A stretch of 60,911 nt of DNA from a virus, in the IMG/VR virus record IMGVR_UViG_3300037193_002766, positions 1 through 60,911 of that record, one strand, 5' to 3'. The notes under the pieces are model-generated. The model did not search any database, was not told the DNA's origin, and saw nothing but the letters and a program-made list of their open reading frames with translations. How positions within the stretch are numbered: the stretch's first letter is position 1; each line of letters starts with the position of its first letter. A program made the translations under genes and the position numbers. Below are positions 5,426-25,201 of this stretch, piece after piece.

Positions 5426-6484
5426 TCAGGCGACCTTGACGTTGCGGAGCACGCCGCAGGACTTGGTGTTGCGCAGGACCATCGCGCCTGGGCCGATCTC
5501 GATCTCGCCGGACTTCACCGCGCCGGGCTGGGACCAGTCCGGCATGAAGGTCTCGACGAGCGGCTTGCCCGCCATCGCCGCGCCGTGGAACGAGTCCAGG
5601 CCGAAGCTGACGGCGTACAGGTCGGTGAGGCTGGTGATGTTGCCGCCCGCGCCGCCGCCGTCCGGGTCGCGCGTCTCGATCGGGATGATCGGGGACGCGG
5701 AGACCGCCTTGTCGCCGAGGTCCACGAGGGTCCACGGCCCGTAGGACTCGATCTGACGGCCCAGGTCGTCCTTGGTCTGGGTGTACTGCCCGGCCCACCG
5801 TGCGAGCGCCCGCATGCGGGTGATGCTCTTGGTGTTGCCCAGGATCGCGCGGCGACCGGCGGGAAGCCCGCCCGGTGCGCCGAGGTCGCCGCCGCCGACA
5901 CGCGACGGCACCAGGGTGGACAGCCAGTCGTCGACGATGTCGAGCTGGATGTTCGCCTTGGCCTGGGTGTCGATCGCACCAGGCGACCAGTCCGCGTACG
6001 AGATGCCGCTGGAGTTCGGCACGTACTCGGTGGTCGAGCCGGTGAGGAGCTTGTCGAGACCGTCGAAACCGTTGGCGTCAACGGCGACGTCACCGTTGAT
6101 GATCTCTTCCTGCAGCCGGATCGTCGCGCCGGTCATCAGTTCCTGCATCTGGAATGTGACCTCGTTGGTCTGCGCCGGACCCAGCGAGCGCAGAACGCGG
6201 TCGATGGAGAACGCGCCACCGAACGGCTTGAGCGTGACGCTCCTCTGCTCGCGGACCGCGGAGTCGACGGAGTACTCGGTGTTGAGCGCTCGGAACTGAC
6301 CGGAGCGCGGGGTCTTGAGCAGGGTGTAGCCGTAGATCAGCGAGGCACCACCCGTGCCAGGCGTCGCGGTGTCGTCCCACACGATCTGGTCCCACAGCCA
6401 GGAGTACTGGCGCAGGTTGCGGATGACCGCGTGGTCGATGTCAGCGCGGGCGTTGATCTCCGCCTGCGCAAGGGTGATGGGCAT
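5426..6484 (-). CDS. Major capsid protein (HK97-fold type)
   Basis: 352 aa, follows the scaffold gene. N terminus and length are typical of actinophage major capsid proteins. Confidence 0.8.
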   Translation of the reverse strand: MPITLAQAEINARADIDHAVIRNLRQYSWLWDQIVWDDTATPGTGGASLIYGYTLLKTPRSGQFRALNTEYSVDSAVREQRSVTLKPFGGAFSIDRVLRSLGPAQTNEVTFQMQELMTGATIRLQEEIINGDVAVDANGFDGLDKLLTGSTTEYVPNSSGISYADWSPGAIDTQAKANIQLDIVDDWLSTLVPSRVGGGDLGAPGGLPAGRRAILGNTKSITRMRALARWAGQYTQTKDDLGRQIESYGPWTLVDLGDKAVSASPIIPIETRDPDGGGAGGNITSLTDLYAVSFGLDSFHGAAMAGKPLVETFMPDWSQPGAVKSGEIEIGPGAMVLRNTKSCGVLRNVKVA

Positions 6485-9049: not shown

Positions 9050-10654
9050 TCACGCCTCAGACTGCTCGCCGCCCGCGCCCTGCTCGTCCTCGCCCTGCTG
9101 TGGCCGGTTGACCACGATCTGCCCGCCCGTGAAGGTGTCCGGGTTCTCGACTGGCGGCCCTTCGATCGCCTTGACCTCCTTGTCGACGCGCGTCTTGTCC
9201 CAGTCCGGGTGGACCATTTCGACCTTCGTCCGTGTCGACACCGCGGCGGCCGCGTCGAGCAGCTGCACGGTGCGCGCCACCGTTTCGAGGTCCTCCGCGA
9301 CACCGTCTGGCCACTCGATCTCAGGCTCGTCGACGTCGGAGGAGCCTCCGAAGTGCGCGTAGTCCAGCTGCAGCAACACCGACGACATCTCGACTAGCGC
9401 CGGCGACCAGTAGAGCGTTTTGTGGCCACGCGTGAGGTAGGTGTCCTCTTGATCGGCCGCAACCTCGGTCGCGGTCTTCAAGCCTCCCTGGGTCTGGAAC
9501 CCGAAGGTCTCGCCGCTGTACCCACAGTCCTGCACGATCGCTTGGGACAGCTCACGCGCGGTGCCCAGGTGCTCCTCGAAGCGGATCGCGAACTGCGCCA
9601 CCGTGATCGGCGTTTGGCTGCCGGGCTGCGGCAGCATGCTGAGCGCCGAGTAGACCTCGCGCTCCGGATCCCACGACGCACCTCGACCGGGGCCGTTGTT
9701 CTGCAGGTACGCGTCCGGGACGACGATGCGTCCCTTGGCGAGCCGAATGTCGCGGAGCAGCGACGTCCACACTTCGTCGAGCGCATCGAGCATCGGCTCC
9801 GCGCCGGCGATGTCCGCGCGGCCGAGCTCGCACGCGGCCGGGATCTTGCGCCAGTACTTGTTGGGCCTCATGTTGGGCACGTACCGGACCGTCAGATCCT
9901 TGATCAGGGTCTCGATGCGGTCGCCGTCCTCGACCACGTCCACGTACTCGGTGGTCTCCGCATGCTCGTTGAGCGGGATCCTGCGGCCGAGATGATCCGG
10001 GGTGCCTTCGTAGAGGCCGTGCAGGATCGCGCCCGGTTCGTGGCGTTCGAGGTGCCGGATGACCCGGTTGCCGTCGTCCTCCAGCACGCGCCAGAACGAG
10101 CACGCGGTGAGCTTGCCGCCCTGCCACTGTGGAACCGCTGCGTCCGCGTAGGTGGTGTGCATCCACGGCTTGTTGGAGATGTCGGAGTTCCACAGCGCCC
10201 GCAGGTACACGCCGCCGTGGCCGGCGCAGAGTTCGCCGGCTTCAAGGAGTGTGGCGCGGAAGCTGTGGCCGAGCAGTTCGTCGAGCCGGTCCTGGGTGGC
10301 CGTCTGTTTGGCCTTGAAGGTGGGCGGTTCGGAGAACAGCAGCTTCGACGACTTGGCCGCGATGTCGGAGGCGAGCGGGATGTGGAGCTTGGCGCGCTGC
10401 TCGCCGAGCGGAATCGGGGTACCCCAGAACCAGCGGGCAAGCCGGCCGACGACGCCACCGCGGTACTGGCTGGGGTGGTTGCTGAGCCGGTTGCGGCTGA
10501 CCGAGTCGTAGCCGTGGGCGTAGGTGCTGCCGTAGATGTCGGCTAGGTGGTCAGGGTCTCCGGTGTACCAGGCGTCCCAGGAGTCGATACGGGCGAAGAC
10601 GGGGTCGAGCTGGCGTGGTGGCCAGGCGGTGTTTCCGCCTTCGGGGAGCGGCAC
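9050..10654 (-). CDS. Portal protein
   Basis: 534 aa. GTG at 10654 preceded by GGGAG. Position after terminase. SPP1 gp6-like length. Confidence 0.85.
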   Translation of the reverse strand: MPLPEGGNTAWPPRQLDPVFARIDSWDAWYTGDPDHLADIYGSTYAHGYDSVSRNRLSNHPSQYRGGVVGRLARWFWGTPIPLGEQRAKLHIPLASDIAAKSSKLLFSEPPTFKAKQTATQDRLDELLGHSFRATLLEAGELCAGHGGVYLRALWNSDISNKPWMHTTYADAAVPQWQGGKLTACSFWRVLEDDGNRVIRHLERHEPGAILHGLYEGTPDHLGRRIPLNEHAETTEYVDVVEDGDRIETLIKDLTVRYVPNMRPNKYWRKIPAACELGRADIAGAEPMLDALDEVWTSLLRDIRLAKGRIVVPDAYLQNNGPGRGASWDPEREVYSALSMLPQPGSQTPITVAQFAIRFEEHLGTARELSQAIVQDCGYSGETFGFQTQGGLKTATEVAADQEDTYLTRGHKTLYWSPALVEMSSVLLQLDYAHFGGSSDVDEPEIEWPDGVAEDLETVARTVQLLDAAAAVSTRTKVEMVHPDWDKTRVDKEVKAIEGPPVENPDTFTGGQIVVNRPQQGEDEQGAGGEQSEA

Positions 10655-11610: not shown

Positions 11611-11864
11611 GCAGAACCTTGAGGTGCCGAAACGGCCACAGGGGTGAAGTCGAGGTAGTACTGCTGGCCGAGTTCGAACTGGACGTTCGGATTGTCGACC
11701 GTGATCTCCAAGCTGCCACTCGGCGTGTACTTGGCGTACCGCTGATCCTCCGGCAGGTCAGCGTCGTACACGGCCTGGAACCTGTAGGTCCGGACGCCGT
11801 CGGCGACGTTGTAGGAGCTGCGCGTCTCGCTGATGCACATGAACTTCGCGCGGGTTGTGATCAT
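11607..11864 (-). CDS. Hypothetical protein
   Basis: 85 aa, coupled to terL. Confidence 0.6.
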   Translation of the reverse strand: MITTRAKFMCISETRSSYNVADGVRTYRFQAVYDADLPEDQRYAKYTPSGSLEITVDNPNVQFELGQQYYLDFTPVAVSAPQGSA

Positions 11865-13135
11865 GCTGCTTCCTCCATCGGTTCCAGCAGCTGGCCACGC
11901 CAGACCGCTTCCGTCGTGTAAATCGCGTACCGGCCGGCGTCGAGCGAGTGGTCCTCCGCCTTGATCGGCGCGTCCTCGCCCTTCTCACCCTTCTTCGGGT
12001 CCCAGCTGTAGCCACCGATCTCCTCGGTCCAGCCCTTGCACGACCGGTGCACCCGGAACTGGTCCATCGCGATCAGCGACGACACCGTGCGGATGCCGTC
12101 CACCACCGCGTTGTTCGCCAACGTCGGCGTCAGCGTCTTGTCGGCGTACAGCTGCGTCACGAACGACTTCGCCGACGGGTCCACCACCGTCCACTCCGGA
12201 TGCACCCGGAGCCCGGTCAGCCACGCGGTGAGGCGCTGGCTGTACTCGGAGTCGGTCAGCGGCCGGTGCGAGGCCTTGCTGTCGTAGCGCCACTCGTGCG
12301 CCAGGTACAGGCGCTTGTCGACACCCAAGCCGAGCAGGAGTGCGGCGAACGGGTTCGTCGTGCCGTAGTCGATGCCCAGCGCGATCCAGCGGGTCATCGT
12401 GGGCAGGATGTCCACGATCATCTTGTCGGACCAGGCGTCGTACACGGCGCCCTCGGCGAGGCACCACTCGCCCTTGATGAACCGGCGGAACCACAACCCG
12501 ACGTACTGCCGCTTGAGCCGCGCAACGTAGGCCGGCTCCAGCGATGGGTTGTCGGCGAGCTGGAAGTGCCAGTGCCGCATGCCGACGTCGGCGGCCTTGA
12601 GGATGAAGTTCTTCCGCAGCCAGTGACCCGGACCGTCAGGGTTCGTCGTGGCCATCAGCTTCGCGCCCGGTACGCGGAGTCGGGACAGCAGCATCATCCA
12701 GAACCCGACCGGCACGAGCGTGGCCTCGTCGACGTACGCGAGTGCGATGGTCATGCCTCGGATGCGGTCCTCGGCGCGGATGTCGTTGGCGCCGATGATG
12801 TGGACGGTGCGGCCGAGGATCGTGGCGGTGTTCGCGCCGCGGGTGTGGTGGACGAACGCGGCGAACGGGCCGAACAGCAGCGGGGACTGCAGGGGCTCGA
12901 TCAGGTTCCGCTCGATGGTGTCCTTCGTCTTGCCCATGATCACGATCAGGCCGTGCGACGGGGCGACGGTGATCGCGATCAGGAACGCCAGCAACGAGGC
13001 GATCGTCTTGCCGGACGACACCGCGCCGGACCAGAGCGCGATCTGCGGCGTCTCCTGCGCGCGGACGACGCTGCGGATCTGCTTGGGCGACAGGATCTTC
13101 GTGATGCGCTGAAGATCAATCGTCGGCGGCATCAT
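11861..13135 (-). CDS. terL: Terminase large subunit
   Basis: 424 aa. Walker A GAVSSGKT. Nuclease-like C-terminal half. Follows the small subunit. Confidence 0.85.
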   Translation of the reverse strand: MMPPTIDLQRITKILSPKQIRSVVRAQETPQIALWSGAVSSGKTIASLLAFLIAITVAPSHGLIVIMGKTKDTIERNLIEPLQSPLLFGPFAAFVHHTRGANTATILGRTVHIIGANDIRAEDRIRGMTIALAYVDEATLVPVGFWMMLLSRLRVPGAKLMATTNPDGPGHWLRKNFILKAADVGMRHWHFQLADNPSLEPAYVARLKRQYVGLWFRRFIKGEWCLAEGAVYDAWSDKMIVDILPTMTRWIALGIDYGTTNPFAALLLGLGVDKRLYLAHEWRYDSKASHRPLTDSEYSQRLTAWLTGLRVHPEWTVVDPSAKSFVTQLYADKTLTPTLANNAVVDGIRTVSSLIAMDQFRVHRSCKGWTEEIGGYSWDPKKGEKGEDAPIKAEDHSLDAGRYAIYTTEAVWRGQLLEPMEEAA

Positions 13136-13643
13136 CGGCGACGCCCTCGTCGTCGAGCTGGTCCGCGACCGCCTTCAAGCCGGCGAACAGCTGGGACACC
13201 ATGCTGCGCGCGCCCTCGGCACCACCGTCGGTGTCGTGGTGATCGAGCCGCATGGAGGCGGTGAGCGCCACCGAGCAGGCGTTCATGATGTCGCGCTGGT
13301 CCTTGAACAGCGGCCGGTCAACCTGCTTGCTGTTGTAGGTGTGGTCCTTGCCGCCGAAGCTGTGAATTGTCGTTGGTGCCCACAGCTGCAGGCGCAGCCT
13401 GTCGGCGTCCTCAAGCAGGGCAAGCATCATCTGCGCGCGGCGCTTCTTGGCGTCTGCTCGCATCGCGTCGGTCGCGGCGGCGACCTCGGGGCCGCGTTCG
13501 AAGGAGAGGCCTTCGGCTGCGGCGTGGTTGCTGATGGTCGATCCGGAGCGGTTCATCTCGCGGGCAATGTCGTTACGGGACATGCCCTCGGCGTGCAGTT
13601 GGTGGAGGCGGGCGGTGTCGTCGTCGGTCCATTCGTTGCCCAC
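13116..13643 (-). CDS. terS: Terminase small subunit (HTH)
   Basis: 175 aa. N-terminal HTH (MSRNDIAREMNRSGSTISNH). Immediately upstream of terL. Confidence 0.65.
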   Translation of the reverse strand: MGNEWTDDDTARLHQLHAEGMSRNDIAREMNRSGSTISNHAAAEGLSFERGPEVAAATDAMRADAKKRRAQMMLALLEDADRLRLQLWAPTTIHSFGGKDHTYNSKQVDRPLFKDQRDIMNACSVALTASMRLDHHDTDGGAEGARSMVSQLFAGLKAVADQLDDEGVADDAADD

Positions 13644-13756
13644 GGCGCACCCCCGCTCGCGTGTGGGTGGCCGCAGCCGTCGGTTCCGGCCGCCGCGTGG
13701 GGCGTGCCCACACCGGGTGGCGGCTGCGGCCTGTCTCCCGCACCCCTGCAGGGGAG

Positions 13757-13869
13757 TGGTCCCGGCGGGATTTGAACCCGCGACCCAAAGGTGGGCGTTC
13801 TCCGCAGTCGAGTTCTTCGCTCTACGGAAAGCGCCGCACCCCTGCTCTGCCGAACTGAGCTACGGGACC
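13757..13869 (-). tRNA. Aberrant tRNA-like gene (113 nt) with an oversized anticodon region
   Basis: Minus-strand read. Acceptor GGTCCCG/CGGGACC, D arm GCTC-AGTTCGGCA-GAGC, T arm GCGGG-TTCAAAT-CCCGC, discriminator A. 61 nt lie between the D and T arms where about 22 are expected. Confidence 0.5.
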
Positions 13870-13872
13870 AAG

Positions 13873-13914
13873 CACGAAGCCCCAGCCGCTTCGCACGCGG
13901 CTGGGGGCTTCGTG
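13873..13914. terminator. Strong hairpin (17-bp stem with one bulged G, 7-nt loop)
   Basis: cacgaagccccagccgc / gcggctgggggcttcgtg. Lies between the 14124 gene and the tRNA-like gene. Confidence 0.55.
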
Positions 13915-14123
13915 GTGGTGCCAGGCCCTGGCGGGCGGGCACCTTTCATCACTGTGGACAGGACCTCAAGGGGTCCTTCTTGATGAAGATTCCTTTGGCG
14001 AGTCCAGCGTCCGCCATATGACGCTGTGCCTCGGTGGCGGTCAGGATGGTCGATCCACGGGTGTCGAGCTGGTGTGGACACAGCTCTGGCTGGCGAAAGC
14101 GTCACACAGCCTGTGACCTGCGG

Positions 14124-14342
14124 TCAAGCAGACTCGCGTAAGTGGTCGCTGCGGTGGTCGCCACGCCGGTCGAGGTACGCGGTGATCTCGCCGAGGTCGT
14201 AGCCGCGGCCCTTGGAGATCAGGTTGCGGTACTTCCAGTTGCGTACGGCGCTGTCGCTGACGTTGTAGCGCTCGTCGCCGGTGCGCTCGTACTCCTGCCT
14301 GAGCGCGAGCATCACGAGGTCCAGCGGCACGCGGTCAGCCAC
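14124..14342 (-). CDS. Hypothetical small protein
   Basis: 72 aa, 8-nt overlap with the upstream gene. Confidence 0.55.
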   Translation of the reverse strand: MADRVPLDLVMLALRQEYERTGDERYNVSDSAVRNWKYRNLISKGRGYDLGEITAYLDRRGDHRSDHLRESA

Positions 14343-24705: not shown

Positions 24706-24746
24706 GTAGGTGTTGCCTGCCGGGGCAGGCAACGGACAACACCTAC
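24706..24746. terminator. Interrupted GC-rich hairpin after the 24362 gene
   Basis: gtaggtgttgcctgcc / ggcaggcaac...caacacctac. Confidence 0.5.
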
Positions 24747-24778
24747 CCGCTGGTGTCCGCTGCGGTGAGGCTGGACTC

Positions 24779-25201
24779 ATGAAGTTCACCCCGACGCGCC
24801 CCGACGCGCTCATCGTGACGCGCGGCTTCCTGCACCCGCTCCCGGACGGACTCCCGCCCGTCGACCTGGTCCTCGACCTGCGCCGGATCCTCGCCGACCC
24901 GGCGCACCGACCCGAGGGCGACATGCTCGACATGAACGGCCTGCAGCGCGAGGTGCGCGACTTCGTGCTCGCCACACCCGGTGCCGAGGCGCTGCTCGCG
25001 GGCGCAGTGCCGCTGCTGTCCGCAGTGGCCACGGCGAGGTTCGTCGTGGTGATGGTCGGCTGCTCCGGCGGGAAGCACCGCGCGCCGGCGATCGGCGCCG
25101 AGCTCGGCGCGCGTCTGCGGGCTGAGGGGCTGGTGGTGCCGGTGCGTCATCTGCACGTGCACCTGCCGCGCGTCGTCCGGCCGACGGAGCTCGCCGCCTG
25201 A
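24779..25201 (+). CDS. RapZ C-terminal-domain-like protein
   Basis: 140 aa from ATG 24779. VVVMVGCSGGKHRAPAIGAELGARL resembles the RapZ C-terminal IGCTGGxHRS motif. No P-loop domain. Confidence 0.45.
   Translation: MKFTPTRPDALIVTRGFLHPLPDGLPPVDLVLDLRRILADPAHRPEGDMLDMNGLQREVRDFVLATPGAEALLAGAVPLLSAVATARFVVVMVGCSGGKHRAPAIGAELGARLRAEGLVVPVRHLHVHLPRVVRPTELAA

What the first reader, a model, noticed from the sequence alone, without database searches (positions are those of the whole stretch)
13757..13869. tRNA-like gene with perfect acceptor, D and T arms but a 61-nt block in place of the anticodon arm
On the minus strand the sequence reads GGTCCCG-TA-GCTC-AGTTCGGCA-GAGC-A-[61 nt]-GCGGG-TTCAAAT-CCCGC-CGGGACC-A. 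The acceptor stem (7 bp), D arm and T arm are canonical. The intervening 61 nt is about 40 nt longer than an anticodon arm plus variable loop, and I could not fold it into a standard 5-bp stem with a 7-nt loop and U33. Alternative helices do exist (GGGTG/CGCCC, CGCT/AGCG, CCGTAG/CTGCGG). The extra length is too short for a group I intron and too long for a class II variable arm. Possible explanations include:
- a tRNA with a short unconventional intervening sequence;
- a tRNA-mimic ncRNA (Y-RNA/YrlA-like, or a decoy for an anticodon nuclease);
- a degraded tRNA.
It lies just upstream of terS and just after a strong hairpin (13873-13914).
Basis: seen in the sequence. Interest (0 to 1): 0.6.

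Follow-up and report, generated by a model that had tools for sequence, protein, structure and literature searches.

The report
Non-decoding tRNA-shaped RNA before phage terminase
A temperate Streptomyces-type phage carries, just ahead of its DNA-packaging genes, a gene that keeps the full shape of a tRNA but has a long hairpin where the anticodon should be, so it cannot read codons, yet evolution has clearly preserved its fold; it most likely works as a tRNA-shaped processing signal or small RNA rather than as a dead or spliced tRNA.

Summary
Window 13757-13869 (-) scores 46.5 bits on the Rfam tRNA model, with 47 nt where about 9 are expected. It folds as a cloverleaf whose anticodon arm is a roughly 23-bp hairpin. 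No removal of an insert yields a canonical anticodon loop.

Only one homologue was found in all collections scanned, a 60.9-kb sister phage. Neutral divergence between the two is about 26% and the element is only 62% identical. Even so, every acceptor, D and T pair is kept through compensatory changes. The base of the long arm also covaries, and the tertiary 15:48 pair switches from G:C to A:U. The hairpin apex is almost invariant.

This argues against a pseudogene and an intron-bearing tRNA. YrlA membership fails: 17 bits against 69, no Ro60 gene, different topology.

The body is about 94% identical to a Streptomyces phage tRNA-Asp. The gene lies in the leader between a promoter-like site with a hairpin and the HTH/terS-like, terL and portal genes.

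Best reading (inferred): a tRNA-derived, non-decoding RNA excised by tRNA-processing enzymes, with an apex-specific partner. This scan noted similar elements before on other phage DNA.

No expression data could be obtained. Interest is moderate.

The parts
13757..13869 (-). tRNA-shaped, anticodon-less RNA gene (113 nt)
   Evidence: Rfam tRNA 46.5 bits. Cloverleaf MFE with z = -4.5. The homologue in L002:2788-2904 shows compensatory changes.
13863..13869 (-). Acceptor stem, 5' strand (GGUCCCG); U at -1
   Evidence: Pairs with 13758-13764. In the sister phage the stem is GGCCCCCG/CGGGGGCC, with every pair kept through double changes or a paired insertion.
13844..13860 (-). D arm (GCUC / 9-nt loop with G18 G19 / GAGC)
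   Evidence: The stem is identical in both phages. The loop is 5/9 different but keeps A14 and GG. Position 15 (G in W, A in R) covaries with position 48 (C in W, U in R).
13787..13843 (-). Long hairpin replacing the anticodon arm (about 23 bp)
   Evidence: The arm alone folds at -31.3 kcal/mol, z = -3.4. The base stem has 3 double compensatory changes against the sister phage, and the sub-apical helix has 1 double and 1 single change (read).
13808..13824 (-). Conserved apex: AG / CGA-AGAAC-UCG / A
   Evidence: GAGCGAAGA and CUCGAC are identical in both phages, while the rest of the arm is about 60-70% identical.
13765..13781 (-). T arm (GCGGG UUCAAAU CCCGC)
   Evidence: The sister phage has GCAGG...CCUGU: one double and one G-C to G-U change, with an identical loop.
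13757..13764 (-). Acceptor 3' strand plus discriminator A; no encoded CCA
   Evidence: The sister phage encodes A-CCA after an 8-bp stem.
13873..13914 (-). GC-rich hairpin 4 nt upstream (terminator-like, weak U tract)
   Evidence: Kept with compensatory changes in L002. Similar hairpins lie before the HTH gene in L045, L048, L049 and Piccadilly. It does not meet the consensus terminator scan.
13915..13960 (-). 46-nt leader block, 100% identical in the sister phage
   Evidence: 46/46 identical, against 62-83% in the neighbouring segments.
14098..14127 (-). Promoter-like site: TTGACC, 18 nt, TG-n-GACGCT
   Evidence: Conserved in L002, L045 and L048. It is not called by the consensus scan, so this is an inference.
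13735..13753 (-). Conserved block right after the tRNA-like gene, containing palindrome CCCUGCAGGG
   Evidence: Present in both phages (the 21-nt segment 13736-13756 is 19/21 identical) and unique in the window.
13669..13732 (-). Long hairpin between the element and the start of the HTH gene
   Evidence: Inverted repeat GGCCGCAGCCGCC...GGCUGCGGCC. The arms are conserved in L002, which has a shorter loop.
13116..13643 (-). HTH_38 / phrog_5536 protein (terS-like), first gene after the leader
11861..13135 (-). Large terminase
14124..14342 (-). Small upstream gene (72 aa) whose stop overlaps the -35-like hexamer; possible late regulator
   Evidence: ORF with high GC3. Its C-terminus is conserved in L002 and L045. 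No family hit.

Best explanation
This is a functional, tRNA-derived RNA that cannot decode. It probably descends from a tRNA-Asp-type gene. It keeps the acceptor, D and T arms and the L-shape tertiary contacts, and carries a hairpin of about 23 bp with a sequence-conserved apex in place of the anticodon arm. It lies in the long leader of the packaging/late operon, downstream of a promoter-like site and a hairpin, and is co-transcribed with the HTH/terS-like, terL and portal genes. Proposed mechanism (inferred, not shown): host RNase P cuts at its 5' end, where U is at -1, and a 3' tRNA-processing nuclease cuts after the discriminator. This would sever the hairpin-bearing leader from the late mRNA, whose new 5' end starts with conserved hairpins, and would release a stable tRNA-shaped RNA of about 113 nt. 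The invariant apex, held at a fixed distance from the tRNA body, probably binds a specific partner that is still unknown.
For: Shown: tRNA model match with an oversized anticodon region. Cloverleaf with long arm as the MFE.

Shown: the single homologue is 62% identical across the element, while third codon positions of the adjacent gene differ by 25.6%. All 16-17 acceptor, D and T pairs stay paired. The chance of this under neutral change is about 1e-3 with a conservative alignment, and 3e-5 conditional on the nine changed sites in the gap-free alignment.

Shown: three double changes in the base stem of the long arm, and one double plus one single in the sub-apical helix. The 15:48 pair switches from G:C to A:U. 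U8, A14, G18G19 and the T loop are kept.

Shown: the apex GAGCGAAGA...CUCGAC is identical in both. The 5' strand of the arm is 21 nt in both.

Shown: the body is about 94% identical to tRNA-Asp(GUC) of Streptomyces phage Frankenweenie.

Context: a promoter-like site and hairpin are conserved in relatives. Ordinary tRNAs occupy the equivalent slot in pMLP1 and lie ahead of gp29-HNH-terS in phiC31.

U at -1 and A at the discriminator position are present in both copies.
Against: The family has only two members. Exact-pattern scans of viral, GTDB-genome and JGI-metagenome contigs found no other copy.

The sister copy scores 28.6 bits, just under the Rfam threshold, and has an 8-bp acceptor stem and a 4-nt 8/9 linker. 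Its arm is not more stable than shuffles (z = -0.2).

A pure processing signal would not need a D arm or a conserved apex. The promoter and terminator are not called by the consensus scans. About 25 phages with a homologous HTH gene do without any tRNA-like element.
Confidence: 0.5

Rival explanations
1. It is a trans-acting decoy or sponge. The released tRNA-shaped RNA would occupy a host protein that recognises the tRNA body, such as a tRNA-targeting defence nuclease or nucleotidyltransferase toxin, or a tRNA-modifying or CCA-adding enzyme. Its place in the late leader would only set its timing.
For: The full L-shape, including the D arm and the 15:48 pair, is conserved, which is more than RNase P needs. 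It is the only tRNA-like gene in either phage. The idea that phage tRNAs counter tRNA-targeting defences is published (PMC10264068, listed).
Against: It has no anticodon loop, so it cannot be a substrate mimic for anticodon nucleases. No candidate partner was identified. It is very rare: two phages only.
Confidence: 0.2
2. It is a real tRNA interrupted by a short protein-spliced or otherwise removed hairpin intron.
For: In W the inner part can be read as GGCG-CUUUC[27 nt]AA-CGCC, which gives a Glu-like CUUUCAA loop. Other viral contigs do hold tRNA genes with hairpin inserts that leave canonical loops, for example L191 Arg-UCU.
Against: That loop would sit on a stem of about 11 bp rather than 5 bp. 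The sister phage has no equivalent loop at the aligned positions. ARAGORN intron models disagree between the two copies and lack U33 and R37. My screen for a canonical stem plus loop fails for both W and R. Neither phage has a tRNA ligase, RtcB or splicing endonuclease among its Pfam hits.
Confidence: 0.04
3. It is a decaying tRNA pseudogene disrupted by a palindromic insertion and retained only through recent common ancestry.
For: Sequence identity (62%) is no higher than neutral expectation. A distant relative has an ordinary tRNA at the same site. The sister copy falls just under the Rfam threshold.
Against: All stem pairs are kept through compensatory changes (P about 1e-3 or lower). A tertiary pair covaries. 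The apex and T loop are invariant.
Confidence: 0.05
4. It is a Y-RNA-like partner of a host Ro60 (Rsr) protein, effectively a non-permuted YrlA analogue whose long arm presents the Ro60-binding motif.
For: YrlA RNAs have a tRNA-like module plus a long stem carrying GNCGAAN0-1G (PMC4201824). The apex here reads AGCGAAG, one mismatch away. Some actinobacteria encode Ro60 (same paper).
Against: The Rfam YrlA model gives 17.1 bits against a gathering score of 69, and that weak match does not include the apex. Neither phage has a TROVE gene. The topology differs: the ends are at the acceptor stem. The motif is short and imperfect.
Confidence: 0.05
5. The conserved features act at the DNA level, for example as a pac or terminase/HTH-protein binding site in the region upstream of terS, and the tRNA shape is incidental.
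For: It lies directly upstream of the terS-like gene, and the flanking blocks are 90-100% conserved.
Against: The changes are compensatory for RNA pairing, including G-U pairs and a tertiary tRNA pair, which DNA-protein recognition does not explain. The element itself is the least conserved part of the region in sequence.
Confidence: 0.05

Closest known systems
t-elements of plant mitochondria (tRNA-like processing signals in mRNAs; PMC1920247) and mascRNA-type tRNA-like 3'-end signals
   Same: A tRNA-shaped, non-decoding structure is embedded in a longer transcript next to protein-coding genes. It is expected to be recognised by RNase P and a 3' tRNA nuclease, which would define the mRNA ends.
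   Different: Those are organellar or eukaryotic and often lack parts of the cloverleaf. Here the D arm and tertiary pairs are complete, there is a long arm with a conserved apex, and processing has not been shown. The Rfam mascRNA model gives only 15.9 bits against 42.5.
Ordinary tRNA genes at the head of actinophage late/packaging regions: phiC31 tRNA-Thr before gp29-HNH-terS and pMLP1 initiator-like tRNA(CAU) about 200 nt before the homologous HTH gene
   Same: Same genomic slot and orientation. Same tRNA body type (D arm GCUCAGUUCGG..AGAGC is shared with phiC31 tRNA-Thr and Frankenweenie tRNA-Asp).
   Different: Those have normal 5-bp anticodon stems with 7-nt loops and can decode. This one cannot.
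YrlA / bacterial Y RNAs (RF02553; PMC4201824)
   Same: A tRNA-like module with T and D arms and an acceptor-like stem, joined to a long helix that bears a short CGAA-containing motif. M. smegmatis YrlA is cut by RNase P and receives CCA.
   Different: YrlA is circularly permuted relative to a tRNA, with its ends at the long stem, and is encoded next to Ro60. Here the ends are at the acceptor stem, there is no TROVE gene, and the covariance score is far below threshold.
Phage T4 RNAC and RNAD (small stable RNAs from the T4 tRNA region, roles unknown; PMC3014915)
   Same: Phage-encoded small RNAs associated with tRNA genes or processing, with no known decoding role.
   Different: They lie in a tRNA cluster of a lytic myovirus.
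Expanded-arm tRNA-shaped genes in IMG/VR contigs (found here)
   Same: Intact acceptor, D and T arms with 45-72 nt between the D and T arms. About two thirds of 65 distinct arms lack a canonical anticodon stem-loop, as here.
   Different: Their arms are unrelated in sequence and none shares this apex. Their genomic contexts vary: an HNH gene, or Gam/recombination genes. About one third look like intron-bearing tRNAs, mostly Tyr-GUA.

Membership tests
Canonical decoding tRNA (RF00005) | 7-bp acceptor stem, D arm, and T arm with UUCRANY loop | tested here: met
   The sister copy has an 8-bp acceptor stem and a 4-nt linker.
Canonical decoding tRNA (RF00005) | 5-bp anticodon stem closing a 7-nt loop with U33 and a purine at 37 | tested here: not met
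   There are 47 nt in place of 9. Default ARAGORN finds nothing. No split of the insert gives a canonical loop in W or R.
Canonical decoding tRNA (RF00005) | Score at or above the Rfam gathering threshold (29 bits) | tested here: inconclusive
   W scores 46.5 bits and passes. The sister copy scores 28.6 bits, just below.
Intron-containing tRNA (group I, archaeal BHB, or hairpin-intron type) | Removing the insert restores the same canonical anticodon stem-loop in homologues | tested here: not met
   ARAGORN -i gives 'Arg acg' (loop CAACGCC) in W and 'Glu ctc' (G33, misregistered acceptor stem) in R.
Intron-containing tRNA (group I, archaeal BHB, or hairpin-intron type) | Self-splicing intron core, or a splicing endonuclease or ligase encoded nearby | tested here: not met
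   The insert is about 38 nt. There is no intron family hit in Rfam. No RtcB, RNA ligase or endonuclease appears among the phage's Pfam hits.
YrlA / Y RNA (RF02553) | Covariance-model score at or above 69 bits | tested here: not met
   17.1 and 13.7 bits, E 0.35-3.4 on 221 nt.
YrlA / Y RNA (RF02553) | Encoded within a few kb of a Ro60/TROVE gene on the same strand | tested here: not met
   No TROVE match in either 61-kb phage.
YrlA / Y RNA (RF02553) | GNCGAAN0-1G motif on the long stem | tested here: inconclusive
   The apex reads AGCGAAG (first G replaced by A) in both copies. The motif is short, so a chance match is possible.
tRNA-like processing signal (t-element type) | tRNA-like acceptor/T-arm structure inside a transcript that also carries protein-coding genes | tested here: inconclusive
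   The structure is met. Co-transcription is inferred from orientation, the 4-nt spacing after the hairpin, and the absence of a separate promoter.
tRNA-like processing signal (t-element type) | Cleavage by RNase P at the 5' end and by RNase Z or another nuclease at the 3' end, defining mRNA termini | not testable with these tools
tmRNA | tRNA-like domain plus a tag reading frame | tested here: not met
   ARAGORN finds no tmRNA.

The most novel reading that the evidence does not exclude
The element is one member of a widespread, undescribed class of phage-encoded RNAs. These keep a complete tRNA body as a handle for host tRNA-recognising machinery, and swap the anticodon arm for lineage-specific hairpin modules. 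Each module would deliver a different function, such as partner binding, decoy action or regulation of the late operon. In this actinophage the module is an arm of fixed length ending in the invariant AG/CGA-AGAAC-UCG/A apex.
Probability: 0.25. Interest if true: 0.75.

Novelty: new variant of a known kind. Interest (0 to 1): 0.5.

Why it matters
Phage tRNA genes are usually explained by codon supply or by escape from anticodon nucleases. A tRNA-shaped RNA that cannot decode, yet is held together by compensatory evolution down to a tertiary base pair, points to a third use of the tRNA fold in phages. It could be a built-in handle for host RNase P and other tRNA enzymes in the late-operon leader, or a scaffold that presents a specific hairpin. 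The quick IMG/VR scan run here, and earlier notes of this scan on unrelated prophages, suggest that such elements are common but unannotated, because default ARAGORN misses them. This actinophage pair is a compact case: one gene, one conserved apex, and a defined genomic slot. Ordinary experiments on such a case could show what these RNAs do.

Tried and rejected
**Searches for more copies**
- Pattern scans (apex plus T loop) of viral contigs, genome contigs and metagenome contigs returned only the sister phage. All other hits were coding sequence or ordinary tRNAs.
- blastn against phages and plasmids found no homologue of the leader or the element.
- A scan for the 100% conserved leader block found only the sister phage.

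**Synteny route**
- 25 or so loci with a homologous HTH or terL gene were scanned with Rfam. Only pMLP1 and its IMG/VR twin have a tRNA there, and it is an ordinary one.
- Closer relatives exist as proteins P0001-P0008 (71-90% identity).

**Expression**

**Hypotheses tested and rejected**
- Intron hypothesis: tested with ARAGORN -i and a custom loop screen, and rejected.
- YrlA hypothesis: tested with Rfam and a TROVE search, and rejected as membership.
- cos-site idea: related phage records are cut at arbitrary gene starts, which suggests permuted genomes (my inference), so no end could be mapped. The idea was dropped.
- Targets complementary or identical to the apex elsewhere in the window: none above chance.

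**Not obtained**
- Consensus promoter and terminator scans call nothing in this GC-rich leader.
- Papers on the phiC31 late promoter could not be retrieved. That the phiC31 late promoter lies upstream of its tRNA-Thr rests on my own recollection only.

Full report
**What is there**

On the minus strand, 13757-13869 reads as a complete tRNA body. It has a 7-bp acceptor stem (GGUCCCG/CGGGACC), U8 A9, a 4-bp D stem with a 9-nt loop holding GG, a 5-bp T stem with loop UUCAAAU, and discriminator A.

The Rfam tRNA model matches from end to end at 46.5 bits (threshold 29; E 8.8e-07 over the window). It has to skip 47 nt where the model has 9. ARAGORN with default settings reports nothing in the window.

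The minimum-energy fold is a cloverleaf whose third arm is one long hairpin. Its 5' strand reads GGGGUG, a bulged C, GGCG, UUU, CCGUAG, then an AG/A internal loop, and the 3-bp stem CGA/UCG closes loop AGAAC. The fold energy is -59.8 kcal/mol, z = -4.5, and no shuffle of 200 folds as well.

**The genome**

The window is a complete 60.9-kb IMG/VR virus record whose terminal repeat is an assembly overlap. G+C is 68%.

It encodes a tyrosine integrase, WhiB, a RecE-like exonuclease, RuvC, and siphovirus-type head and tail genes. The HTH gene next to the element is related to genes of Streptomyces phages of the SV1/Austintatious type. It is therefore a temperate phage of a Streptomyces-like actinomycete. 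It has no other tRNA.

**Context**

On the minus strand the order is as follows:
- a small 72-aa gene (14124-14342);
- a promoter-like site whose -35 hexamer overlaps that gene's stop codon (TTGACC, 18 nt, TG-n-GACGCT; 14098-14127);
- a small hairpin;
- a 46-nt block (13915-13960);
- a GC-rich hairpin (13873-13914);
- after 3 nt (13870-13872), the tRNA-shaped gene;
- a conserved block containing the palindrome CCCUGCAGGG;
- a long hairpin (13669-13732);
- a ribosome-binding site and the HTH_38/phrog_5536 gene (terS-like);
- terL, then two small ORFs and a plus-strand ORF before portal (9050-10654).

Relatives with a homologous HTH gene share the promoter-like motif and a hairpin directly before that gene (L045, L048, L049, Piccadilly). 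The consensus scans call neither a promoter nor a terminator in this GC-rich DNA. Reading this region as a late-operon leader of the lambda PR'-tR' kind is therefore an inference from position and conservation.

**Homologues**

Only one was found: a 60.9-kb sister phage, IMGVR_UViG_3300041406_000131. Its HTH protein is 90% identical and its terL 94%.

- Exact-pattern scans for the apex plus T loop in IMG/VR, in one genome per GTDB species, and in JGI metagenome contigs gave only chance hits besides this one.
- About 25 more distant loci with a homologous HTH or terL gene have no tRNA-like element.
- The exception is Micromonospora phage pMLP1 and its IMG/VR twin. They carry an ordinary 74-nt tRNA(CAU) with initiator-like features about 200 nt before the HTH gene.
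- In phiC31 a tRNA-Thr likewise lies ahead of gp29, HNH and terS.

The slot is therefore one in which actinophages place tRNA genes, but the expanded element is confined to two phages as far as I could see.

Closer relatives exist at the protein level (P0001-P0008, 71-90% identity).

**Is it under selection?**

Third codon positions of the adjacent HTH gene differ by 25.6% between the two phages. The element is only 62% identical. The upstream 46-nt block is 100% identical. The element's sequence therefore drifts at or above the neutral rate. Its pairing does not.

| Part | What changed between the two phages |
|---|---|
| Acceptor stem | Gap-free alignment: three pairs changed on both sides, all eight kept. 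Conservative alignment: one double change plus a paired insertion of a C:G pair |
| T stem | One double change and one G-C to G-U change |
| D stem | Unchanged |
| Base stem of the long arm (anticodon-stem equivalent) | W: A-U, G.U, G.U, G-C, G-C. Sister phage: C-G, G.U, G-C, A-U, C-G. Three double changes and one single |
| Sub-apical helix | U.G to C-G and A-U to U-A; one outer pair lost |
| Tertiary Levitt pair 15:48 | G:C to A:U |

For the base stem, the 5' strands were aligned without gaps because both are 21 nt long up to the apex.

Simulated neutral change at the synonymous rate keeps all acceptor, D and T pairs intact in about 1 in 1000 trials. Conditioned on the nine changed sites of the gap-free alignment, it does so in about 3 in 100,000.

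U8, A14, G18 G19 and the whole T loop are kept. The apex (GAGCGAAGA...CUCGAC) is identical apart from a one-base difference in loop length.

The middle of the arm differs. It is a continuous helix here, but it has internal loops in the sister phage, whose arm alone is no more stable than shuffles. The sister copy also has an 8-bp acceptor stem and two extra bases in the 8/9 linker. It encodes CCA and scores 28.6 bits, just under the Rfam threshold.

Taken together, the L-shaped tRNA body, the arm length and the apex are under constraint. A decaying pseudogene does not fit.

**Can it decode, or be spliced into something that decodes?**

No split of the insert leaves a 7-nt loop with U33 on the 5-bp base stem. 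ARAGORN forced to allow introns proposes 'Arg-acg' with loop CAACGCC here. In the sister phage it proposes 'Glu-ctc' with G33 and a misregistered acceptor stem. These two models are incompatible with each other and both are non-canonical.

In this phage alone, the inner part could be read as a Glu-like CUUUC[27 nt]AA loop. However, it would sit on a stem of about 11 bp, and the aligned positions in the sister phage do not support it.

No ligase, RtcB or splicing endonuclease appears among the phage's Pfam hits. I rate the intron reading at about 4%.

**Origin**

The two halves of the body are about 94% identical to tRNA-Asp(GUC) of Streptomyces phage Frankenweenie. The D arm is identical, and the T arm and acceptor stem are near-identical. 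The discriminator is A, where that tRNA-Asp gene has G after the acceptor stem. The element probably descends from a phage tRNA-Asp-type gene whose anticodon arm was replaced.

**Y-RNA idea**

YrlA RNAs combine a tRNA-like module with a long stem bearing GNCGAAN0-1G. In M. smegmatis they are cut by RNase P and receive CCA (PMC4201824). The apex here reads AGCGAAG, one mismatch away, which is suggestive. Against this:
- the YrlA covariance model gives 17 bits against a threshold of 69, and that weak match does not include the apex;
- neither phage has a TROVE gene;
- the topology is not permuted.

The element may resemble YrlA in how it works, but it is not a member of that family.

**Most likely mechanism**

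*Shown:* it is a conserved, non-decoding, tRNA-shaped RNA gene placed between a leader hairpin and the packaging genes.

*Inferred:* it is transcribed with the late/packaging operon, since there is no room for a promoter in the 3 nt after the hairpin. Host RNase P cuts at its 5' end, where U is at -1 in both copies. A 3' tRNA nuclease cuts after the discriminator. This would detach the hairpin-bearing leader and leave a late mRNA that begins with conserved hairpins. It would also release a stable tRNA-shaped RNA. The invariant apex, held at a conserved distance from the body, probably binds a specific partner.

The conserved D arm and apex go beyond what a bare processing signal needs. I therefore keep a trans-acting role (decoy or scaffold) as the main rival, at about 20%.

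**Wider picture**

- 71 of the places inspected have a paired acceptor stem and T stem, giving 65 distinct arms.
- About one third look like intron-bearing tRNAs. Most are Tyr-GUA, probably from giant viruses, with a few Arg-UCU bearing hairpin inserts.
- About two thirds have no canonical anticodon stem-loop, as here.

Their arms are unrelated to this one and their contexts differ. One precedes an HNH gene, as in phiC31, and others precede Gam/recombination genes.

Earlier notes of this scan, which are unchecked AI leads, describe anticodon-less tRNA-like RNAs in the late leaders of Clostridia, Ruminococcus and Streptococcus prophages, and a phage family with variable inserts. The present case agrees with them in position and shape. 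I found no paper describing such elements in actinophages.

**Verdict**

It is a new variant of a known kind, the tRNA-like non-decoding RNAs. Its mechanism is not demonstrated, and the family so far has only two members. Interest is moderate (0.5).

Noticed in passing
window 13915-13960 (-): A 46-nt non-coding block is 100% identical in the sister phage, while its neighbours are 62-83% identical. It contains CGCCCGCC and a small GGUGCC...GGCACC inverted repeat. It could be a protein-binding or antitermination site of the late leader.
   Followed up: partly
window 14098-14127 (-) and L002, L045, L048: The promoter-like TTGACC, 18 nt, TG-n-GACGCT overlaps the stop codon of a 72-aa gene (14124-14342). 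That gene's C-terminus (..GYDLGEI..YL..) is conserved in relatives, so it may be a late regulator with its promoter.
   Followed up: partly
L037:1231-1304 (Micromonospora phage pMLP1, CP058906) and L070: An ordinary 74-nt tRNA(CAU) has initiator-like features: an A1xA72 mismatch, GGG/CCC in the anticodon stem, and A11-U24. It lies about 200 nt upstream of the homologous HTH/terS-like gene, between hairpins.
   Followed up: partly
IMG/VR loci L085-L201: There are dozens of tRNA-shaped genes with 45-72 nt between the D and T arms. Subfamilies include one with a hairpin followed by ACAGCAA (L117, L119, L170, L175, L178, L182, L198). Another is a recurrent 62-nt arm (L086, L108, L152, L190, L193). 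A third has near-perfect long hairpins (L147, L196, L162).
   Followed up: partly
L191 (arm AGUGC-CUUCU[26 nt]AA-GCACU) and L087, L103, L164: Phage tRNA genes in which removing a hairpin insert right after the anticodon would leave a canonical Arg-UCU-type loop. These are candidates for protein-spliced or otherwise processed phage tRNA introns.
   Followed up: no
L014:~2290-2400 and L019:~6200-6290: L014 holds a tRNA(CAU)-like gene with an insert of about 38 nt after the anticodon. L019 holds a tRNA-like gene with an 18-nt anticodon loop.
   Followed up: no
L129 (element at oriented 9799-9902): A high-GC viral contig has an expanded-arm tRNA-shaped gene followed by a 100-aa ORF and an HNH endonuclease. 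This is the same order as phiC31 tRNA-Thr, gp29, HNH.
   Followed up: partly
window 24710-25201 (+): A 163-aa protein has a RapZ C-terminal (PapZ_C, PF22740) domain at 54.8 bits. In RapZ this domain binds small RNAs. No link to the tRNA-like RNA was tested.
   Followed up: no
window 13742-13753 (-): A perfect 12-nt palindrome, CCCCTGCAGGGG, lies 3 nt after the discriminator. Its core CCCTGCAGGG is kept in the sister phage.
   Followed up: no
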